A stretch of 64,000 nucleotides of DNA from a virus (IMGVR_UViG_3300013121_000025:32001-96000); one strand, 5' to 3'. Positions 57,315 through 64,000 are shown, counted from the first letter of the stretch. Notes: generated from the letters alone by a model not told the origin. Made by a program: numbers and translations.

Positions 57315-59927
57315 TTACCTAATAACAGAATATGCCTTGTGCCACCATGAAGGTATTTGACTATGCATTCTTGTATATAAGTAATTCCAAGATTCATCAA
57401 GAATATATGTGGTACCATAATCTTCTTTTGATCGAACAATACGTCCACATGCTTGTAATACTTGTATAATCGCTTGTTCTTGGTACCATTCATTTGATTC
57501 TTCCATTCTTGCTTTTACCCACTGGTCGCCAAGATAAGGATAAGGTGTTTTTACAATAATACCAAATCTTGCTAAATCATCTTTTAAATCTAATCCTTCA
57601 GTAATACTTGGAGAGATTAAAATTGCTGGGTTCGGAGTTTCAATAAATGCTTGAATGACAGAGTTTCTATCATCACCCGAATCAGGGTTATGATGAAAGA
57701 TTTGTTGATCCACCTTAAGATTTTCAACTAACCATTCTGCTATACTGAAATTAGCTGTATGAATAATTCCTTTATCTTTTTGATGTAAATTGCAAATTGT
57801 CTTTACGCCTTTTAGCATGTGCTCACGAGATTTAGTATTTTGAGGCTTATCCCAATCAACATTCATCTTCATGTGTGGAATGAATCTCACCTTTCTGTTT
57901 TCAGGTGGGAATTCAGAAACAAGTGAAATATAAGCTGCTTCTTCTTTTGGAATGCCTAATTTCTTACAATAACCCTCAAAACTTGGAATTGTAGCAGACA
58001 TAAAAAGAAACTTATCCGCATATGGACCAAGATACTTACTAAAGATTTGATCAGCGTGTAGACGTTTGAATTTGATATTCATCTTATCATGTACTAATAC
58101 CCAATCCTTATCCAAATCATGTTTAGATACAGATTCAAGAGATGTTACAGATGTTAAATGTTCACATAATTCTGTGTATTCTTTAATTAGATCAATCTCA
58201 TCAGGGGCTAAATGTTTTTGTTCAAGCAATGGAGTTACAGTTTGTTCCATTGTATTGACGGTTTGATCTAATGCAGGTAGATATGTATCTCTCACCCATT
58301 GATATGCTTTATTTTTGTCAGAAAAGTAAGTCCATTTTAGATGAACTTGTTCCATTCTAGATTTGGTAATATGGATTGCATTATATTCACATAGAATATT
58401 TTCTAAAGAATGTGCTTCATCACATATCATTAATTGTCTTCGTTCGAAGTCACCAACAACGGAGAATTGCAAGAGTGCTAATTCGTAATTAAGAACCATA
58501 TTGGAAGAAGTTGCAGCTTTTGATTTTGCATTTTTATGGTTACAATCATTGCATTTTGGTTTAATTAATCCGCCAATTGCACAATTAGTTCTTTTTGATT
58601 TGCATTCATAATTTGACTTGCCATATAAACCAATCAAGTTGGTCAAAGGATTATTATTGAAATCATTTTCATATTGCTTTTGTAATATGCGTTGTGGTGT
58701 CAATATGAATGAATTACCGAATCCGTTTGCTAAGAAGCGGGAAAATGTTATACCTATATCACTTTTCCCACTATTGTGAGTAACAGTGAAATCGTCCAAC
58801 ATATATAAATGATCTTTATCTAACAAAAAACCGTAAAAATTGTCGTTGTTAACATACTCTACAGAAAATCCTGTCACATGTGGTCGCTTCTGTTGCTGTC
58901 GAATAGAAGCTTGTTTTCTTTTTATTTTAGTTGGTATTAAATGGGTGTGCCCTGAAATACATACATCATAATATATATTTCCTTTGACCATTCTATCATA
59001 AATGGTTACAGTAAAACCTACACTGTGTGCAATAAAGGAGACATCATCACGTAATTTAGATGACTTAGTGGTATATACAAAGCAGTTTGATGAATTGTGT
59101 CCATCTGTATCGATTAAACCAGCTAAAATATTCAAGCGAGAGTCGATCGATGATATTTTGTATACATGTGGAATAAATTTATTTTCAGATGTTAAACCAT
59201 ACAACTGTAGATTTTTAAGTTTGTTGATTAAATGATTAATTCTTGGTATGGAATTGATACGCTCTGATACAAAGCGGTATGTATGGGCCTTTGATTGTGT
59301 TTTATATTTTTTAATAGTACAATCAAAATGCTCTGCTATATTGTTTAGATAAGATTCGATTTCTGGATCCATAGAAGTAACATCAATGCTGTGTGTTATT
59401 GATCCATCACCCAATAACACACCTAATAAGTACGGATCTATTGGTAATTCCAATCCTTCGGTTGTAAATGAAATTGATTGTGGTTTGTATAATTTCACAT
59501 TTCGTTTAAAGTCATTGCTTTGATTTAGATAATCATGCACAGATATATTGATAATATTTTTTCCGTCAAAACCATATCTTCTAGCTGGCGTGGTAATCAC
59601 TGATAAAATATGATCTTCATTTACATAGAATGATTTTCCTTTGATTGGTTTGATTCTGTATATTTTGCCATATCCATTGAATAATTTAAGAACACGACGT
59701 GGTGACGAATCAGGTCCCATTAATATGTCATTTGGTTGCACATCTTCAACGTTGCGTAATGTTCCATCGAACATTACGACTTTGGTCCCTTTTGTATGGC
59801 AACCAACAGGTGCATTCAATATGAAATATTTCTTATCTCTATTTGCTTCAAGCCATTCCAGTGCTTGTATTTGCGGATCTCTTGGTTGTTTTGATTTATC
59901 TGGCCAATAACTAAGTATATTTGACAT
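57315..59927 (-). CDS. DinG/XPD-family Fe-S helicase containing an intein
   Basis: Q motif RDPQ, Walker A APVG|SGKS split by an intein, 4-Cys cluster, DEAH, MSAT, EGLDL, QACGRIVRS. Confidence 0.92.
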   Translation of the reverse strand: MSNILSYWPDKSKQPRDPQIQALEWLEANRDKKYFILNAPVGCHTKGTKVVMFDGTLRNVEDVQPNDILMGPDSSPRRVLKLFNGYGKIYRIKPIKGKSFYVNEDHILSVITTPARRYGFDGKNIINISVHDYLNQSNDFKRNVKLYKPQSISFTTEGLELPIDPYLLGVLLGDGSITHSIDVTSMDPEIESYLNNIAEHFDCTIKKYKTQSKAHTYRFVSERINSIPRINHLINKLKNLQLYGLTSENKFIPHVYKISSIDSRLNILAGLIDTDGHNSSNCFVYTTKSSKLRDDVSFIAHSVGFTVTIYDRMVKGNIYYDVCISGHTHLIPTKIKRKQASIRQQQKRPHVTGFSVEYVNNDNFYGFLLDKDHLYMLDDFTVTHNSGKSDIGITFSRFLANGFGNSFILTPQRILQKQYENDFNNNPLTNLIGLYGKSNYECKSKRTNCAIGGLIKPKCNDCNHKNAKSKAATSSNMVLNYELALLQFSVVGDFERRQLMICDEAHSLENILCEYNAIHITKSRMEQVHLKWTYFSDKNKAYQWVRDTYLPALDQTVNTMEQTVTPLLEQKHLAPDEIDLIKEYTELCEHLTSVTSLESVSKHDLDKDWVLVHDKMNIKFKRLHADQIFSKYLGPYADKFLFMSATIPSFEGYCKKLGIPKEEAAYISLVSEFPPENRKVRFIPHMKMNVDWDKPQNTKSREHMLKGVKTICNLHQKDKGIIHTANFSIAEWLVENLKVDQQIFHHNPDSGDDRNSVIQAFIETPNPAILISPSITEGLDLKDDLARFGIIVKTPYPYLGDQWVKARMEESNEWYQEQAIIQVLQACGRIVRSKEDYGTTYILDESWNYLYTRMHSQIPSWWHKAYSVIR
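58773..59801 (-). mobile_element. class 1 intein (343 aa) with LAGLIDADG endonuclease, inserted in Walker A
   Basis: CHTKGT start, VNEDHIL, LLGVLLGDG, LAGLIDTDG, FTVTHN followed by +1 Ser. Confidence 0.95.
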
Positions 59928-59956
59928 GTATATTTCTCAAAAATGATTATTCGGTG

Positions 59957-59985
59957 ATTTTACGCGATTTATCGCGTAATGTCAA
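59957..59985 (-). promoter_or_regulatory. near-consensus sigma70 promoter of the helicase gene with a palindromic spacer
   Basis: TTGACA-17-TAAAAT; the spacer overlaps TTACGCGAT-NN-ATCGCGTAA (59960-59979). Confidence 0.8.
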
Positions 59986-60024
59986 CCGAATCGAGTTCCT
60001 GTTGGAACTCGCGTGATTTGTGTT

Positions 60025-60413
60025 CAAAAAATGAATAATTAATATATTCATTCACTTCGTTCATTCATATATTAATTATTAGCGCTTTTAAATCCATTGA
60101 AATCCTAGAATTTGATCCCCCGTTTAGAGTAGAGTACACACACTACTCAGGGGTATGAAACGGTAACACGCCCCAGTCACTCATTATGACCATAGAGATT
60201 AGAATTAAAATTCATTTTTGAATATATCAATGGATAATGGTCTCATAAAGATAGCACCACCCGTTCACAAGGAAGATCATCTAATCCTCTTCCAAGGCAT
60301 GACGACGATATTGTGAAATCCATCACTTAATACGCAAACAACGTACCACCGCCCAACGATTCGTATCAATTATTACAGATTAGATGTGTAATAATCGAAT
60401 TGTAAAATTCATG
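60025..60413 (-). ncRNA. candidate ~390-nt structured non-coding RNA of unknown family
   Basis: No ORF of 60 aa or more; upstream sigma70 promoter; many helices, including a G.U-rich one that forms only on the minus strand; crossing (pseudoknot) pairings; terminal 14-bp hairpin followed by a U tract. Confidence 0.6.
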
Positions 60414-60419
60414 AAAATA

Positions 60420-60448
60420 AAAATACTTCGGTTTAAAACGAAAGTCAA
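60420..60448 (-). promoter_or_regulatory. sigma70-like promoter driving the non-coding region
   Basis: TTGACT-17-TATTTT directly after the resolvase stop codon. Confidence 0.6.
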
Positions 60449-60452
60449 CGAA

Positions 60453-61052
60453 TTATTTTTTACCTTTTTTAGTAAGCATTTTATTTTTTATTGTGTCTAC
60501 TTTTGATGAAATGGTTAACCATTCTTGAATGCTATCATAAGAACGTTCATTTCTGGCTTGAATAACTTTCGCTAATTTAAAGAAAACAGAAGCATCCACT
60601 ATCATAAATTCTTCATGATAGCGTAAGAAATTATTCATTTCAGCGTTTGTAATATCCATAAAATGATAAGGCAACACACAATATGTACCTTTTCTTGATG
60701 TTCTGAAAAATAATAATGGAGTTCGTTTGGAATTAATAGCATCAAATAATGCTTCACCAATCCATCCATCAAGATCAGTATCATAATCGTTTATTAATTT
60801 TCCGAGATTTGGTTTGTCACCATAATTCTTACATTCAATACTAAATCTGAACCACGATGGACAGATAATATCCGAACCGAGGGCCTTTTTTGTAGAATCT
60901 TCTAAGTTTTGATTTTTTTCGTAATTTGACAAACCCATAATAGCACCAGAACTTGGTGTACGAGCGAATTCTTCTGTTTCGAATGCTTGATTGAGCAAAT
61001 CTCTCATCTCACGTTCGAGACGATTTCCCTTTGCTTTACTTTTACTAGTCAT
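60453..61052 (-). CDS. Holliday junction resolvase-like PD-(D/E)XK nuclease (Hjc type)
   Basis: SKAKGNRLERE, RTPSSGA, GSDII, FSIECK. Confidence 0.8.
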   Translation of the reverse strand: MTSKSKAKGNRLEREMRDLLNQAFETEEFARTPSSGAIMGLSNYEKNQNLEDSTKKALGSDIICPSWFRFSIECKNYGDKPNLGKLINDYDTDLDGWIGEALFDAINSKRTPLLFFRTSRKGTYCVLPYHFMDITNAEMNNFLRYHEEFMIVDASVFFKLAKVIQARNERSYDSIQEWLTISSKVDTIKNKMLTKKGKK

Positions 61053-61327: not shown

Positions 61328-64000
61328 TTATGTTTCTTTAATTTGCGAGAAACCATTACTCATTTGTACAGTGAGAATATTCTCGAAGATATTCTCCACT
61401 TCGTCTCTATGTGAGATAATATATACAGATAAGTTTTCTTGTTTTGCTTTGCGTTTGATTAATTTCGCAGCAGCTTGAATGCCTAATGCATCTAAGCCCA
61501 CATCCAACACTTCATCAAACATACAAATATTGATAGGATCATGTAATTTCTGTAACAAATCTCTAAATGCTAATGATAATGATAAGTTAACACGAGCTCT
61601 TTGTCCATTAGATAAATTACCAAAGTCGATCTCACGACCATAACTAGATATACGAGCTGTGAGTTCTGAGGTAAATTCAACTTTATGTGGCAATCCTAAT
61701 TCGTTAAGGTATTCTTTAAGTTGTTTATTAAGATATGGTAAATTCTTTTCGAGCAATACCTTTCTCACGAAAGAATCTTTTTTGGTTAAAATCTTTTGTA
61801 AGAATTTTTGATGTTCGAGTAATTTTGTCAATTCATTAATCTCATCATAATTAATAGATGGCAATGCAATACTTTCTAATTCTTTTAAAGGTTCGATGAA
61901 AGGATTTACAGCTGTTTCAAGATCTGCGAGTTTCTGTTTAGCAGAATTAACCTCTTGTTGTTTAGCTGATAAGTCTTTCATATTATCGAAATGTGCAAGC
62001 TTATATAATGCTTCTAATTCTTTTACTATTTTAGTAGATTGTTTTTCCATTATATCTACAGCAATTGAATACTCTTTAATTTTAGGAGTATTTGTTTCAA
62101 TTGCTGCTAATAATTCATTTAATTTTGTCTTCGTATCAGCATAATGTTGATGACAATATGGACACTCATGATTATTAAGTTGTTTAATTTCATTCTTCCA
62201 TTTTGTTTCGTTTGTGAGCAAAGTATTTAAATCCTTTGCGATAACATTCTTTTCTGATTTTAATTTAGTGAGTTGGTTTGTCTTTTCACTAATGGAGTTA
62301 ATGATTTCTAATTCAGCTTCGAAGTCAAAATCTTTGAATTTCTCTAAAGTATTTTGAATTGAAACGCGTTGGTTATTATTCGTATCTTGCCAAGTCTTAA
62401 TTCTATTCTTAGCAGATATTAATTGTTGTTCATGACGTTGATGTTCACCTTTAACAGCTTCTATTTTAAATTCAGCTTGTTTAATAGCTACTTGTGTATC
62501 TTTAATTTTTTCCTTAAGAACATCAGCCTTAACAGACAATTCTGTTAACCCATTTAAATGTTCCATAATTGCAGTTTGTTCAGCAGACGTTAATTCTAAA
62601 AATGGAACACGTGTAGCAGAGAATACAACAATATGAACAAACATATCATACGGAATTCCTATAATTTGTTCGATATAAGCATTAGTATTAGCTATACTAT
62701 CTCTTGTAACATCTTTATCGTTAATCCAAAGTTTAACATAGTTACCATCTTTCGCTTTTCGAGCACGTTCTATTTTAATAACATCTTCGCCTTTCTCAAA
62801 TGTTGTAGTAACAACCATGTTCTTTTTATTGATATTATTAATTAGGTTATCTTTTGAGATGTTAGATAATGCTTTATCATATGCAGCAAAAGTAAGAGCA
62901 TTAAGCAACGTTGTGTTATGAGTTACAATAAAATCATTTGTAATATATAATTTATCAGGATGATCAACTGAAATACACTGTGCTTCTTTTTTTCCTACAT
63001 ATTCAACATTAGAAATGCGTAATCCACTATTTCCGTATTGAGATATCTCATTAAGTAAACTTTTCTTTCGAGAGCATTTAACTAGATTTGTTTGATTTTT
63101 ATATCTTATAGTAATATCGTATGCTAACTTACCTGGAATTTTAATTCTGTCTTTATTATAATAAAAAGGACGTCTAATACGTACAGACGCAATACCACCT
63201 AATGATCTAACAAGATATTGTACTTGTTCAGATAATTGTTTACTAGTCGTACAAAATGAAAGTCCGTGTGTTTTTGAGACGAAACCATCAGTATCAATAA
63301 GTCCTGCAAGTAATTCTTCTTTTTGTTTAACACTAGTATTCATCATGTATATTTCAGGAATAAATTTCTCATGGGAATATACGTCTTTTAATCCTAATTC
63401 TGTTATAATTCGTGTTAAGTGTTTAAAAGACCCTTTAATTCTCCAATTTAATCCATCTTCACCACTTAACGTGGCTTGTAATGTGGTTAATTTATTATTA
63501 ATTGCATTTATTACATCATGATCTTTGTTTGTAAATGTTATACCTTTATCAGTAAAGCCACCATCTCCTAATAAACATCCTAGTAGATAAGGATCTAAGG
63601 GTAAATCAACATCAGGAACATCAGGATGTGTTACCAACGGAACGAAAATATTATACCAAGCTTTCTTTTTTTCTTTTGCTTTCGATAAAAGAGGAATAAG
63701 ATCTTTTGTGGATAATAGTTTCGATTGTCTCGATTTTCCATCTTTAACCCACATATGACTTTCTACTTTCCATAAATGCTCGGAACAAGCCTCTACATAT
63801 CTTCCATCTTGAAATGTTACTTTATAAATGTCGACTGCTCCTTGAGGATACACACCTACAACGCTACATATTTCACCTGAAGGCGTAGTTACTTTATCAT
63901 TAACTTTTATTTCTCCCATGGTTGTCCAACCTGAAGGAGTTTTAATTTTACTATCGAGAGTTAATGCTTTTCCCAATCCATTGCTCGTTACTCCAAATAC
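61328..64000 (-). CDS. gp46/SbcC/Rad50-like recombination ATPase containing an intein; 5' end lies outside the window
   Basis: Walker A SNGLGK|TT split by an intein, CPYC zinc hook, LSNGQ signature, MFDEVLD Walker B, IISH; frame open to base 64000. Confidence 0.93.
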   Translation of the reverse strand, partial: VFGVTSNGLGKALTLDSKIKTPSGWTTMGEIKVNDKVTTPSGEICSVVGVYPQGAVDIYKVTFQDGRYVEACSEHLWKVESHMWVKDGKSRQSKLLSTKDLIPLLSKAKEKKKAWYNIFVPLVTHPDVPDVDLPLDPYLLGCLLGDGGFTDKGITFTNKDHDVINAINNKLTTLQATLSGEDGLNWRIKGSFKHLTRIITELGLKDVYSHEKFIPEIYMMNTSVKQKEELLAGLIDTDGFVSKTHGLSFCTTSKQLSEQVQYLVRSLGGIASVRIRRPFYYNKDRIKIPGKLAYDITIRYKNQTNLVKCSRKKSLLNEISQYGNSGLRISNVEYVGKKEAQCISVDHPDKLYITNDFIVTHNTTLLNALTFAAYDKALSNISKDNLINNINKKNMVVTTTFEKGEDVIKIERARKAKDGNYVKLWINDKDVTRDSIANTNAYIEQIIGIPYDMFVHIVVFSATRVPFLELTSAEQTAIMEHLNGLTELSVKADVLKEKIKDTQVAIKQAEFKIEAVKGEHQRHEQQLISAKNRIKTWQDTNNNQRVSIQNTLEKFKDFDFEAELEIINSISEKTNQLTKLKSEKNVIAKDLNTLLTNETKWKNEIKQLNNHECPYCHQHYADTKTKLNELLAAIETNTPKIKEYSIAVDIMEKQSTKIVKELEALYKLAHFDNMKDLSAKQQEVNSAKQKLADLETAVNPFIEPLKELESIALPSINYDEINELTKLLEHQKFLQKILTKKDSFVRKVLLEKNLPYLNKQLKEYLNELGLPHKVEFTSELTARISSYGREIDFGNLSNGQRARVNLSLSLAFRDLLQKLHDPINICMFDEVLDVGLDALGIQAAAKLIKRKAKQENLSVYIISHRDEVENIFENILTVQMSNGFSQIKET
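62915..63967 (-). mobile_element. class 3 intein (351 aa, Ala1, WCT triplet) with LAGLIDADG endonuclease
   Basis: Starts ALTLDSKIKTPSGWTTMG; block B CSEHLW (W), block F AQCISVD (C), block G IVTHN (T); +1 Thr. Confidence 0.9.

What the first reader, a model, noticed from the sequence alone, without database searches (positions are those of the whole stretch)
59928..60452. Stand-alone ~390-nt structured, apparently multi-pseudoknotted ncRNA (or RNA-primed origin) between the resolvase and DinG helicase
This is the largest non-coding gap in the window, and it looks like a complete transcription unit. Seen in the sequence: promoter TTGACT-17-TATTTT (60448-60420), and a terminal 14-bp hairpin (60080-60067/60047-60034) followed by CAUUUUUU. 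Helices on the minus strand: CGAUUAUUACA/UGUAAUAAUUG; GGCGGUGGUA(60353-44)/UAUCGUCGUC(60310-01), which has four G.U pairs and so forms only as minus-strand RNA; GGAAGA/UCUUCC; UUCACAA(60317-11)/UUGUGAA(60270-64), crossing the G.U-rich helix; GACCAU(60242-37)/AUGGUC(60193-88), crossed by AUCCAUUGA(60235-27)/UCAAUGGAU(60100-092); and GGGG/CCCC (60174-71/60153-50), whose loop CCGUUU pairs with AAACGG (60125-20) around a GAGUAG/CUACUC hairpin. AUCCAUUG can also pair with the upstream UGAUGGAU, so a conformational switch is possible. I recognise no tRNA, tmRNA, RNase P, SRP or 6S hallmarks. Inference: either a new large phage ncRNA or ribozyme-like RNA (GAGACCA/UAUGGUC loosely recalls the group I P7 helix, though no gene is interrupted), or a primer RNA for an R-loop origin, given a G5 tract followed by an AT-rich palindrome among replication genes.
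Basis: partly seen in the sequence, partly recalled or inferred. Interest (0 to 1): 0.88.

Follow-up and report, generated by a model that had tools for sequence, protein, structure and literature searches.

The report
New folded RNA gene, jumbo phage
The largest gene-free gap of this uncultured T4-like jumbo phage holds a real, intricately folded RNA of about 370 bases that related phages keep at the same spot and that matches no catalogued RNA family; its job is still unknown.

Summary
Window 59928-60452 is the largest ORF-free gap (525 nt), non-coding under every code tried. The same gap lies between the PDDEXK nuclease and DinG-like helicase genes in at least 12 further lineages of uncultured relatives. 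There the DNA is better conserved than the flanking proteins (41-73% identity).

Two covariance models recover it once per locus. Eleven helices are 90-94% paired, against 34-50% in slid controls, and 52 of 64 pairs show compensatory double changes. G.U pairs outnumber A.C cells 112 to 15, so the folded molecule is minus-strand RNA. Three are window-only coincidences. Only one pseudoknot has support. Six helices are new.

The 3' hairpin is conserved and has a tandem G.A core, so it is more than a terminator. No match was found in Rfam 15, ARAGORN, IMG/VR or GTDB genomes.

My best reading is a stand-alone structured RNA of a new family. A primer RNA for an origin and a helicase leader remain possible. 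Expression could not be tested. Earlier notes of this scan describe what may be the same RNA in other genomes; I could not verify that link.

The parts
60420..60448 (-). Promoter-like site for the RNA: -35-like hexamer at 60448-60443, 17-nt spacer, -10-like hexamer at 60425-60420
   Evidence: 9 of 12 matches; such sites are not enriched over shuffles. In relatives a -10-like A/T hexamer lies mostly 9-11 nt before the conserved 5' ACAA. Use as a promoter is inferred.
60028..60403 (-). The structured RNA. Conservation starts at 60403 (ACAAUU) and the last conserved element ends at 60034, followed by a U run
   Evidence: Alignments A1, A2 and A5. The CM matches cover 60403-60251 and 60246-60106. 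Dot-bracket map.
60366..60398 (-). H1: 12-bp hairpin (60398-87 with 60377-66) with a partly conserved loop
   Evidence: 11 of 12 pairs have changes on both sides; 91% of cells paired.
60304..60353 (-). Three-way junction: H2 (60353-48 with 60309-04) encloses H3 (60347-41 with 60335-29) and H4 (60326-23 with 60316-13). It is rich in invariant G.U pairs
   Evidence: H2 91.7%, H3 97.6% and H4 94.7% paired, with compensatory changes in 4/6, 4/7 and 3/4 pairs.
60271..60293 (-). H5 hairpin (60293-88 with 60276-71)
   Evidence: 7 of 7 modelled pairs have changes on both sides.
60232..60262 (-). Px: 8-bp helix (60262-55 with 60239-32). It closes a 15-nt loop here and a variable inserted hairpin of up to about 90 nt in relatives. 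The invariant block 60270-60263 precedes it
   Evidence: 8 of 8 pairs in the window, L007, L016/L024 and L039. Position 7 is U-A, A-U or C-G; position 4 is U-A or C-G. The insertion is visible.
60202..60230 (-). Two small hairpins: H6a (60230-27 with 60221-18) and H6b (60213-10 with 60205-02)
   Evidence: 5 of 5 and 4 of 4 pairs have changes on both sides; 87% and 83% paired.
60175..60191 (-). H6 hairpin (60191-86 with 60180-75), preceded by the conserved UAUG
60115..60174 (-). Pseudoknot module: H7 (60174-67 with 60157-50), whose loop 60163-58 pairs with 60125-20; H9 (60148-43 with 60132-27) lies between; the conserved G run 60121-17 follows
   Evidence: H7 90.7% and H9 91.7% paired, with 4/7 and 6/6 pairs compensatory. 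The pseudoknot is 92% paired but invariant. Lineage-specific versions exist in L039, L014 and L038. Duplex energies beat the shuffled-loop mean in all 12 lineages, p 0.01-0.30.
60034..60080 (-). H10: 14-bp A-U stem around a conserved core of two tandem G.A steps and a C-GAA-G triloop (60066-60048), then a U run (60031-26)
   Evidence: The same hairpin, with other stems and the same GAAC..GUGA-type core, occurs in 12 lineages and twice in L037. The scan did not call it a terminator, because the stem has no G-C pair.
59957..59985 (-). Separate promoter-like site for the helicase gene (11 of 12 matches), with a 9+9 inverted repeat (59979-59960) between its hexamers
   Evidence: and the sequence. 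A similar TTGACA-17-GATAAT is visible in the aligned sequences of L003 and L008. It argues that the RNA is a transcription unit of its own.
60453..61052 (-). Upstream gene: PDDEXK_15 nuclease, annotated as a Holliday-junction resolvase in PHROGs
   Evidence: Pfam E = 2.3e-22; phrog_244.
57315..59927 (-). Downstream gene: DinG/XPD-type helicase (Helicase_C_2), with an intein in its P-loop

Best explanation
The gap is the gene for a previously uncatalogued structured RNA of about 370 nt, read from the minus strand, in the same direction as its neighbours.

Shown:
- The fold is kept across at least 13 lineages of uncultured T4-like jumbo phages.
- It consists of a 5' hairpin, a G.U-rich three-way junction, a hairpin, an 8-bp helix that tolerates a variable insertion, three small hairpins, an H-type pseudoknot with an inserted hairpin, and a 3' hairpin with a tandem G.A core.
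- The strands that join these helices are invariant.

Inferred:
- It is transcribed from its own sigma-70-like promoter and ends at or after the 3' hairpin. The helicase gene has a promoter of its own.
- It acts as a free RNA, either as the scaffold or subunit of a ribonucleoprotein of the replication-recombination module or as a ribozyme. It is not an mRNA leader.

My odds: real conserved structured RNA 0.95; new family 0.85; stand-alone trans-acting RNA about 0.55.
For: Largest ORF-free gap of the window, non-coding in all codes tried.

The same 440-815-nt gap lies between the PDDEXK and helicase genes on every syntenic contig that reaches the helicase gene.

The DNA has long invariant blocks although the flanking protein is only 41-73% identical.

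CMs for the two halves hit exactly once per locus, in synteny, with E from 1e-42 to 0.17, and once in the phage's own 153-kb contig (tested with the 3'-half model and by DNA identity).

Covariation: 93.5% and 90.3% of cells are paired, against 34-50% when partners are slid. 29 of 36 and 23 of 28 pairs have double changes. 0 of 500 shuffles reach the observed score. Px covaries.

Strand: there are 112 G.U cells and 15 A.C cells; 92.1% of cells are paired on the sense strand and 78.5% on the other.

Separate promoter-like sites lie before the RNA and before the helicase gene.

No Rfam 15 family matches at E up to 10 in the window or in seven relatives. No tRNA or tmRNA was found.
Against: The alignments used for the counts were fitted to the model's structure, which inflates pairing somewhat.

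Folding energy is only about 2 sd below shuffles, and equally so on the other strand.

The fixed position beside replication genes fits a cis role equally well. So does the conserved ORF-free region in front of the orthologous helicase in XacN1-type phages.

Nothing identifies a partner protein or a chemistry.
Confidence: 0.55

Rival explanations
1. Primer RNA of a replication origin. The promoter fires a structured transcript whose G run and the A/T-rich DNA behind it form a persistent R-loop, as with ColE1 RNA II or T4 oriF (own knowledge). H10 folds in the displaced DNA strand and helps to keep the loop open or to load a helicase.
For: The element lies in the replication-recombination module, directly before a DinG-type helicase gene. 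It has a conserved G run (60121-17) followed by A/T-rich sequence. The H10 core is a C-GNA-G triloop with tandem G.A steps in most lineages; from my own knowledge this motif is unusually stable in single-stranded DNA. Orthologous helicase genes of the cultured jumbo phages XacN1, Xoo-sp13 and RAS14 are also preceded by a 680-820-nt conserved ORF-free region, although their upstream neighbours differ.
Against: Invariant joining strands, a pseudoknot and many conserved G.U pairs go well beyond what known R-loop origins need. The cumulative GC-skew minimum is at contig position 96 kb. The RNA is at 92.0-92.4 kb, and the minimum lies near the switch of gene orientation at about 97.9 kb. No iterons or direct repeats were seen in the sequence. 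In XacN1-type phages the G run is buried in a 13-bp intramolecular helix.
Confidence: 0.2
2. Long cis-regulatory leader of the helicase gene. The fold binds a protein or a ligand and decides whether transcription passes H10 into the helicase gene.
For: The RNA always lies directly upstream of the helicase gene and in the same orientation. H10 plus a U run looks like a terminator in the window. The stretch after the G run holds mutually exclusive complementary segments in several relatives (sequences).
Against: A strong promoter-like site lies between the RNA and the helicase start in the window, L003 and L008. The U run after H10 is missing in L014 and L023. In L037 about 330 nt, including a second H10 copy, separate the RNA from the gene. 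A 370-nt leader with 11 helices would be unusually large. No riboswitch model matches.
Confidence: 0.12
3. Remnant or free-standing relative of a self-splicing intron or other mobile ribozyme, as in the reader's group I hint.
For: The size and the pseudoknot fit. The phage is rich in homing elements, with inteins in both large neighbouring genes. The UAAACGGGG block recalls J3/4-P4 of the T4 td intron; this is from memory only.
Against: No group I or group II model matches at E up to 10 in eight sequences. The proposed P7 does not covary. No gene is interrupted. The element is present on every syntenic contig of the clade examined rather than sporadically.
Confidence: 0.05

Closest known systems
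GOLLD and ROOL RNAs (large ornate RNAs of phages and prophages; in Rfam; cryo-EM in PMC12286853)
   Same: Phage-borne, several hundred nucleotides long, with many helices and pseudoknotting. They have invariant joining strands, appear to be stand-alone genes, and their function is unknown.
   Different: No covariance-model match. This RNA is about half their size or less. It is not beside tRNA genes; there are none in the 153-kb contig. It occurs in lytic-type T4-like jumbo phages, at one fixed place in the replication-recombination module.
Primer transcripts of R-loop origins: ColE1 RNA II and T4 oriF/oriG (own knowledge)
   Same: A promoter-driven non-coding transcript among replication genes, with a G run, A/T-rich DNA and a hairpin downstream. 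It neighbours a helicase of a family reported to unwind R-loops.
   Different: No origin has been mapped. The GC-skew turn lies about 4 kb away and has another explanation. No antisense regulator was seen. The conservation has the pattern of a tertiary fold.
Group I introns of T4-type phages (td, nrdB, nrdD)
   Same: Size class, phage host, a pseudoknotted core, and a short motif resemblance.
   Different: No model match, no P7 covariation, no exons, and it is not sporadic.
Bacterial RNase P RNA
   Same: A 350-400-nt pseudoknotted RNA. The invariant GUGAAYGGGYG block followed by a helix recalls J11/12-P12; this is from memory only.
   Different: No RNase P model matches. No P4-type long-range helix was found in a search for covarying stacks. 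There are no tRNA genes for it to serve in the contig.
Conserved ORF-free region upstream of the helicase gene of Xanthomonas phages XacN1 and Xoo-sp13 and Stenotrophomonas phages RAS14 and CM1
   Same: It lies directly before the orthologous helicase gene (40-43% identity). It is 680-820 nt long and ORF-free, with long invariant blocks and a G run near its 3' end. Promoter-like sites lie on both sides in RAS14.
   Different: No detectable homology: R1 and R2 find nothing and nhmmer finds nothing in either direction. It is larger, the upstream neighbours differ, and its G run pairs with a C run 380 nt upstream.

Membership tests
Any Rfam 15 family | Covariance-model match at the gathering score, or at least a consistent weak match in several homologues | tested here: not met
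   Zero matches at gathering over the 64-kb window. Only chance-level hits at E 2.4-9.8 in 59700-60700. Nothing within the RNA in seven relatives.
Group I intron | Conserved P7 pairing and core | tested here: not met
   GACCAU/AUGGUC is 73.6% paired with no compensatory change and 6-7 of 12 sequences unpaired at two positions. Both strands belong to other, covarying helices.
Group I intron | Interrupts a gene whose exons join into one reading frame or RNA | tested here: not met
   The PDDEXK gene ends at 60453 and the helicase gene starts at 59927 with its own start codon and N-terminus. The small ORF found upstream in relatives is absent from the window.
tRNA / tmRNA | ARAGORN detection | tested here: not met
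   No gene in the window or in the whole 153-kb contig.
RNase P RNA | Model match and a P4 long-range helix | tested here: not met
   No RNase P model at E up to 10. A search for covarying stacks found no further long-range helix beyond Px.
GOLLD / ROOL | Model match | tested here: not met
Intrinsic terminator (for H10) | G+C-rich stem followed by a U run, conserved in relatives | tested here: inconclusive
   The window stem has 14 A-U pairs and no G-C pair, so the scan did not call it. A U run follows in the window. U-rich tails follow in L003, L004 and L008, but none in L014 or L023.
Sigma-70-type promoter (for 60448-60420) | Two hexamers at 16-18 nt spacing, more than chance, and a mapped start | tested here: inconclusive
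   9 of 12 matches. The region holds 10 such sites against 8.5 +/- 3 in shuffles. A -10-like element is at a similar distance in most relatives. No transcript start data.
RNA-primed (R-loop) replication origin | Replication starts here; strand-composition skew turns here | tested here: not met
   The cumulative GC-skew minimum is at contig position 96 kb and the RNA is at 92.0-92.4 kb. The minimum lies near the gene-orientation switch at about 97.9 kb. Skew is a weak marker in phages, so this lowers the claim but does not exclude it.
RNA-primed (R-loop) replication origin | Persistent RNA-DNA hybrid and an RNA-to-DNA transition point | not testable with these tools
   This needs DRIP, marker-frequency or primer-mapping data.

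The most novel reading that the evidence does not exclude
The RNA is a catalytic or architectural RNA that works with the neighbouring DinG-type helicase or the resolvase in starting or resolving phage DNA replication. One possibility is a structured primer or R-loop organiser whose 3' hairpin is read as single-stranded DNA. Another is a new ribozyme class. The unrelated-looking RNA before the same helicase gene in XacN1-type phages would then be its functional counterpart. That would make an RNA partner a general feature of this helicase in jumbo phages.
Probability: 0.2. Interest if true: 0.9.

Novelty: categorically new. Interest (0 to 1): 0.75.

Why it matters
Natural RNAs of more than 300 nt with a conserved, pseudoknotted, many-helix fold are few. 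Nearly all that have been solved are ribozymes, ribonucleoprotein scaffolds or self-assembling cages. A new family of this kind, kept at one place beside the recombination nuclease and helicase genes of a whole clade of jumbo phages, points to an RNA-based step in phage DNA metabolism that is not in the textbooks. It is small enough for chemical probing and cryo-EM. The finding that cultured Xanthomonas and Stenotrophomonas jumbo phages carry a conserved non-coding region at the equivalent place gives a laboratory system for testing whether such RNAs are made and what they do.

Tried and rejected
Coding readings: no frame opens under table 11, table 4 or TAG=Q.

Known RNA families: Rfam at gathering and at E up to 10, in the window and in seven relatives; ARAGORN.

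Thermodynamic stability as a criterion: z about -2 on both strands, not informative.

Search for more copies:
- phage GenBank records by blastn;
- IMG/VR by four DNA patterns and two protein scans, with the hits screened by CM: nothing;
- GTDB genomes by a 17-base gapped pattern: five chance hits, none confirmed;
- distant PDDEXK loci, Atu_ph07 and CP81: no gap and no CM hit;
- E. coli genomes, to look for antisense matches to rRNA or tRNA: nothing.

Homology to the XacN1-type region: CM and nhmmer both negative.

Further long-range helices: a covarying-stack search over the joined alignments gave only the helices already defined.

The small ORF upstream in relatives as an RNA partner: no Pfam or PHROG family, and absent from this phage.

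GC skew as an origin marker: explained by gene orientation.

Literature: the IMG/VR structured-RNA catalogue (PMC10690425) describes motifs of about 67 nt on average and needs three IMG/VR copies, so it cannot hold this RNA. The XacN1 paper (PMC5852040) mentions no such region. A genome-language-model preprint (10.64898/2026.09.22.753630) does not mention a helicase in its main text.

Resemblances to RNase P J11/12, the td intron J3/4-P4 and the 11-nt tetraloop receptor are from memory only and found no support.

Full report
**Where we are.** The window is part of a 153.6-kb IMG/VR contig, estimated to be 44% complete, so the phage is of jumbo size. The neighbours of the finding, all on the minus strand, are:
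- an SbcC/gp46-like protein that carries an intein (61328-63976);
- an 84-aa ORF;
- a PDDEXK_15 nuclease annotated as a Holliday-junction resolvase (60453-61052);
- a DinG/XPD-type helicase with an intein in its P-loop (57315-59927).

The closest cultured relatives of the helicase are the jumbo phages XacN1, Xoo-sp13, CM1 and RAS14, at 40-43% identity.

**The gap.** 59928-60452 is the largest ORF-free stretch of the window: 525 nt, against at most 319 nt elsewhere. No reading frame opens under table 11, table 4 or TAG=Q. Rfam 15 finds nothing at gathering in the 64 kb and only chance-level hits at E 2.4-9.8 around the gap. ARAGORN finds nothing. The minimum free energy is only about 2 sd below shuffled controls, and equally so on both strands. 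Stability by itself therefore says little.

**Relatives.** The PDDEXK protein has 39 homologues at 41-73% identity in metagenome assemblies. I fetched twelve of them with their contigs. Every contig that reaches far enough shows the order nuclease, often a small ORF of 84-136 aa, an ORF-free gap of 440-815 nt, then the helicase. The gaps align, and they are better conserved than the proteins. Five close lineages share long invariant blocks, and more distant ones keep a recognisable core. A variable insertion of up to about 90 nt sits at one point, as in variable arms of structured RNAs.

**Structure.** I built two covariance models from the five close sequences: R1 for the 5' half (36 pairs) and R2 for the 3' half (28 pairs). 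Over 24 sources (204 kb), each model hits once in each of 12 sources (11 of 12 in common), always in the syntenic gap and always on the gene strand, with E from 1e-42 to 0.17. R2 and a DNA-identity search each find one copy in the phage's own contig.

On the resulting 12-sequence alignments:
- 93.5% and 90.3% of cells form standard pairs, against 34-50% when the 3' partners are slid by 1-3 columns;
- 29 of 36 and 23 of 28 pairs show changes on both sides;
- none of 500 shuffles reaches the observed covariation score.

These alignments were fitted to the model, which favours pairing, but the margins are large.

An eighth-order helix, Px (60262-55 with 60239-32), spans the variable insertion. 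It is fully paired in four divergent lineages, with U-A, A-U and C-G at one position.

The loop of H7 (60163-58) can pair with 60125-20. In the close clade this pairing is invariant (92% paired, no covariation). L039 offers a different complementary pair of segments at the same place, and L014 and L038 carry an extra C opposite an extra G. Loop-to-tail duplexes are more stable than the shuffled-loop mean in all twelve lineages, with p 0.01-0.30 each. I regard this one pseudoknot as probable.

**Strand and molecule.** In the modelled helices there are 112 G.U cells and 15 A.C cells. 92.1% of cells pair on the sense strand and 78.5% would pair on the opposite strand. Several G.U pairs are invariant. 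This is the signature of selection on minus-strand RNA, not on duplex DNA.

- Kept: the first hairpin, GGAAGA/UCUUCC, GGGG/CCCC, GAGUAG/CUACUC, the loop-to-AAACGG pairing and the terminal hairpin.
- Kept with a shift: the G.U-rich helix.
- Dropped: UUCACAA/UUGUGAA, GACCAU/AUGGUC and AUCCAUUGA/UCAAUGGAU (no partner in relatives).
- New: H3, H4, Px, H6a, H6b and H6.

The RNA is a row of helices with one pseudoknot, joined by invariant single strands such as 60270-60263 and 60126-60115. A search for further covarying long-range stacks found none. With 10-12 sequences that search is weak.

**The 3' hairpin.** H10 (60080-60034) is not just a terminator. Twelve lineages have a hairpin at the equivalent place with unrelated stems, which covary, and the same core. 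The core is one or two tandem G.A steps, each followed by two Watson-Crick pairs, capped in most lineages by a C-GNA-G triloop. L037 has two copies. A U run follows in the window and partly in close relatives, but not in L014 or L023. From my own knowledge such triloops are especially stable in single-stranded DNA, so I cannot say whether H10 is read as RNA or as the displaced DNA strand.

**Transcription unit.** A sigma-70-like site precedes the RNA (60448-60420), and a better one (59985-59957, 11 of 12 matches) lies between the RNA and the helicase start. Similar sites are visible in the aligned L003 and L008 sequences. In relatives a -10-like element lies mostly 9-11 nt before the conserved 5' ACAA. 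These are consensus matches only.

**Distribution.** I found no copy in phage GenBank records, in IMG/VR, in GTDB genomes, or in distant PDDEXK loci, Atu_ph07 and CP81. The family seems confined to one uncultured clade.

However, XacN1, Xoo-sp13 and RAS14 each have a 680-820-nt ORF-free region directly before the orthologous helicase gene. It has long invariant blocks and a 13-bp long-range helix between a C run and a G run. RAS14 has promoter-like sites on both sides. It matches no Rfam family. It shows no detectable homology to the RNA studied here. More distant helicase relatives have no gap.

**Function.** Nothing computed here shows what the RNA does. I commit to a stand-alone, trans-acting structured RNA, either a ribonucleoprotein scaffold or a ribozyme, at about 0.55. 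My reasons are that the invariant joining strands, the pseudoknot and the conserved G.U pairs are typical of a tertiary fold, and that the unit has its own promoter-like site and a separate one follows it.

A primer RNA for an R-loop origin gets about 0.2. It fits the module, the G run, the A/T-rich tail, H10 and the helicase link. Against it, the GC-skew minimum is about 4 kb away and lies near the gene-orientation switch, and known R-loop origins need no such fold.

A helicase leader gets about 0.12, and an intron-like relic about 0.05.

**Earlier notes of this scan.** Two notes are readings of this same stretch. Two others (e1-5764946, e1-5348862) describe a large pseudoknotted RNA behind the resolvase gene of other uncultured T4-like jumbo phages. 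This may be the same family, but I could not link them by sequence. I count them as leads only.

Noticed in passing
L054:2960-3480 (XacN1), L056:1940-2500 (Xoo-sp13), L055:2900-3480 (RAS14): Cultured jumbo phages have a 680-820-nt ORF-free, strongly conserved region directly upstream of the orthologous helicase gene. It has a 13-nt C-run segment complementary to a G-run segment about 380 nt downstream. It has no Rfam match and is not annotated. It is probably another large structured RNA, in phages that can be grown.
   Followed up: partly
window 57315-59927 (-), roughly 58775-59801: The helicase carries an intein (Hint plus LAGLIDADG domains) inserted after NAPVG in its P-loop. L018 and L037 have one at the same gene, while most relatives do not.
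   Followed up: partly
window 61328-63976 (-): The SbcC/gp46-like protein also carries a LAGLIDADG intein in its N-terminal part (Pfam matches at residues 210-301).
   Followed up: no
window 59960-59979 and 59992-60011: A 9+9 inverted repeat lies between the -35 and -10 hexamers of the helicase promoter-like site and looks like an operator. An 8-bp G+C-rich hairpin lies just upstream of it.
   Followed up: no
L003:5248-5658, L004:5599-5946, L007:2711-2965, L008:1085-1414 and others: Most relatives have a small ORF (84-136 aa, no Pfam or PHROG family) between the nuclease gene and the RNA. This phage, L016 and L039 lack it, so the RNA does not depend on it.
   Followed up: partly
L037:4516-4670: One relative has two tandem copies of the H10-type hairpin about 100 nt apart, and about 330 nt between the RNA and the helicase gene.
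   Followed up: no
L014:6305-6365: In L014 the conserved AAACGG block can also pair with either of two downstream ACCGUUUA copies, in competition with the pseudoknot. This could be a lineage-specific switch.
   Followed up: no
L023:1720-2100: A G+C-richer relative keeps the Px-flanking blocks and an H10 with the identical core. Neither CM detects it, and it carries the complement of the G-run block. It is a divergent form worth aligning by hand.
   Followed up: no
whole contig (G000, 153.6 kb): There are no tRNA genes in 153 kb of a jumbo-phage contig. Gene orientation switches at about 97.9 kb, near the cumulative GC-skew minimum at 96 kb.
   Followed up: partly
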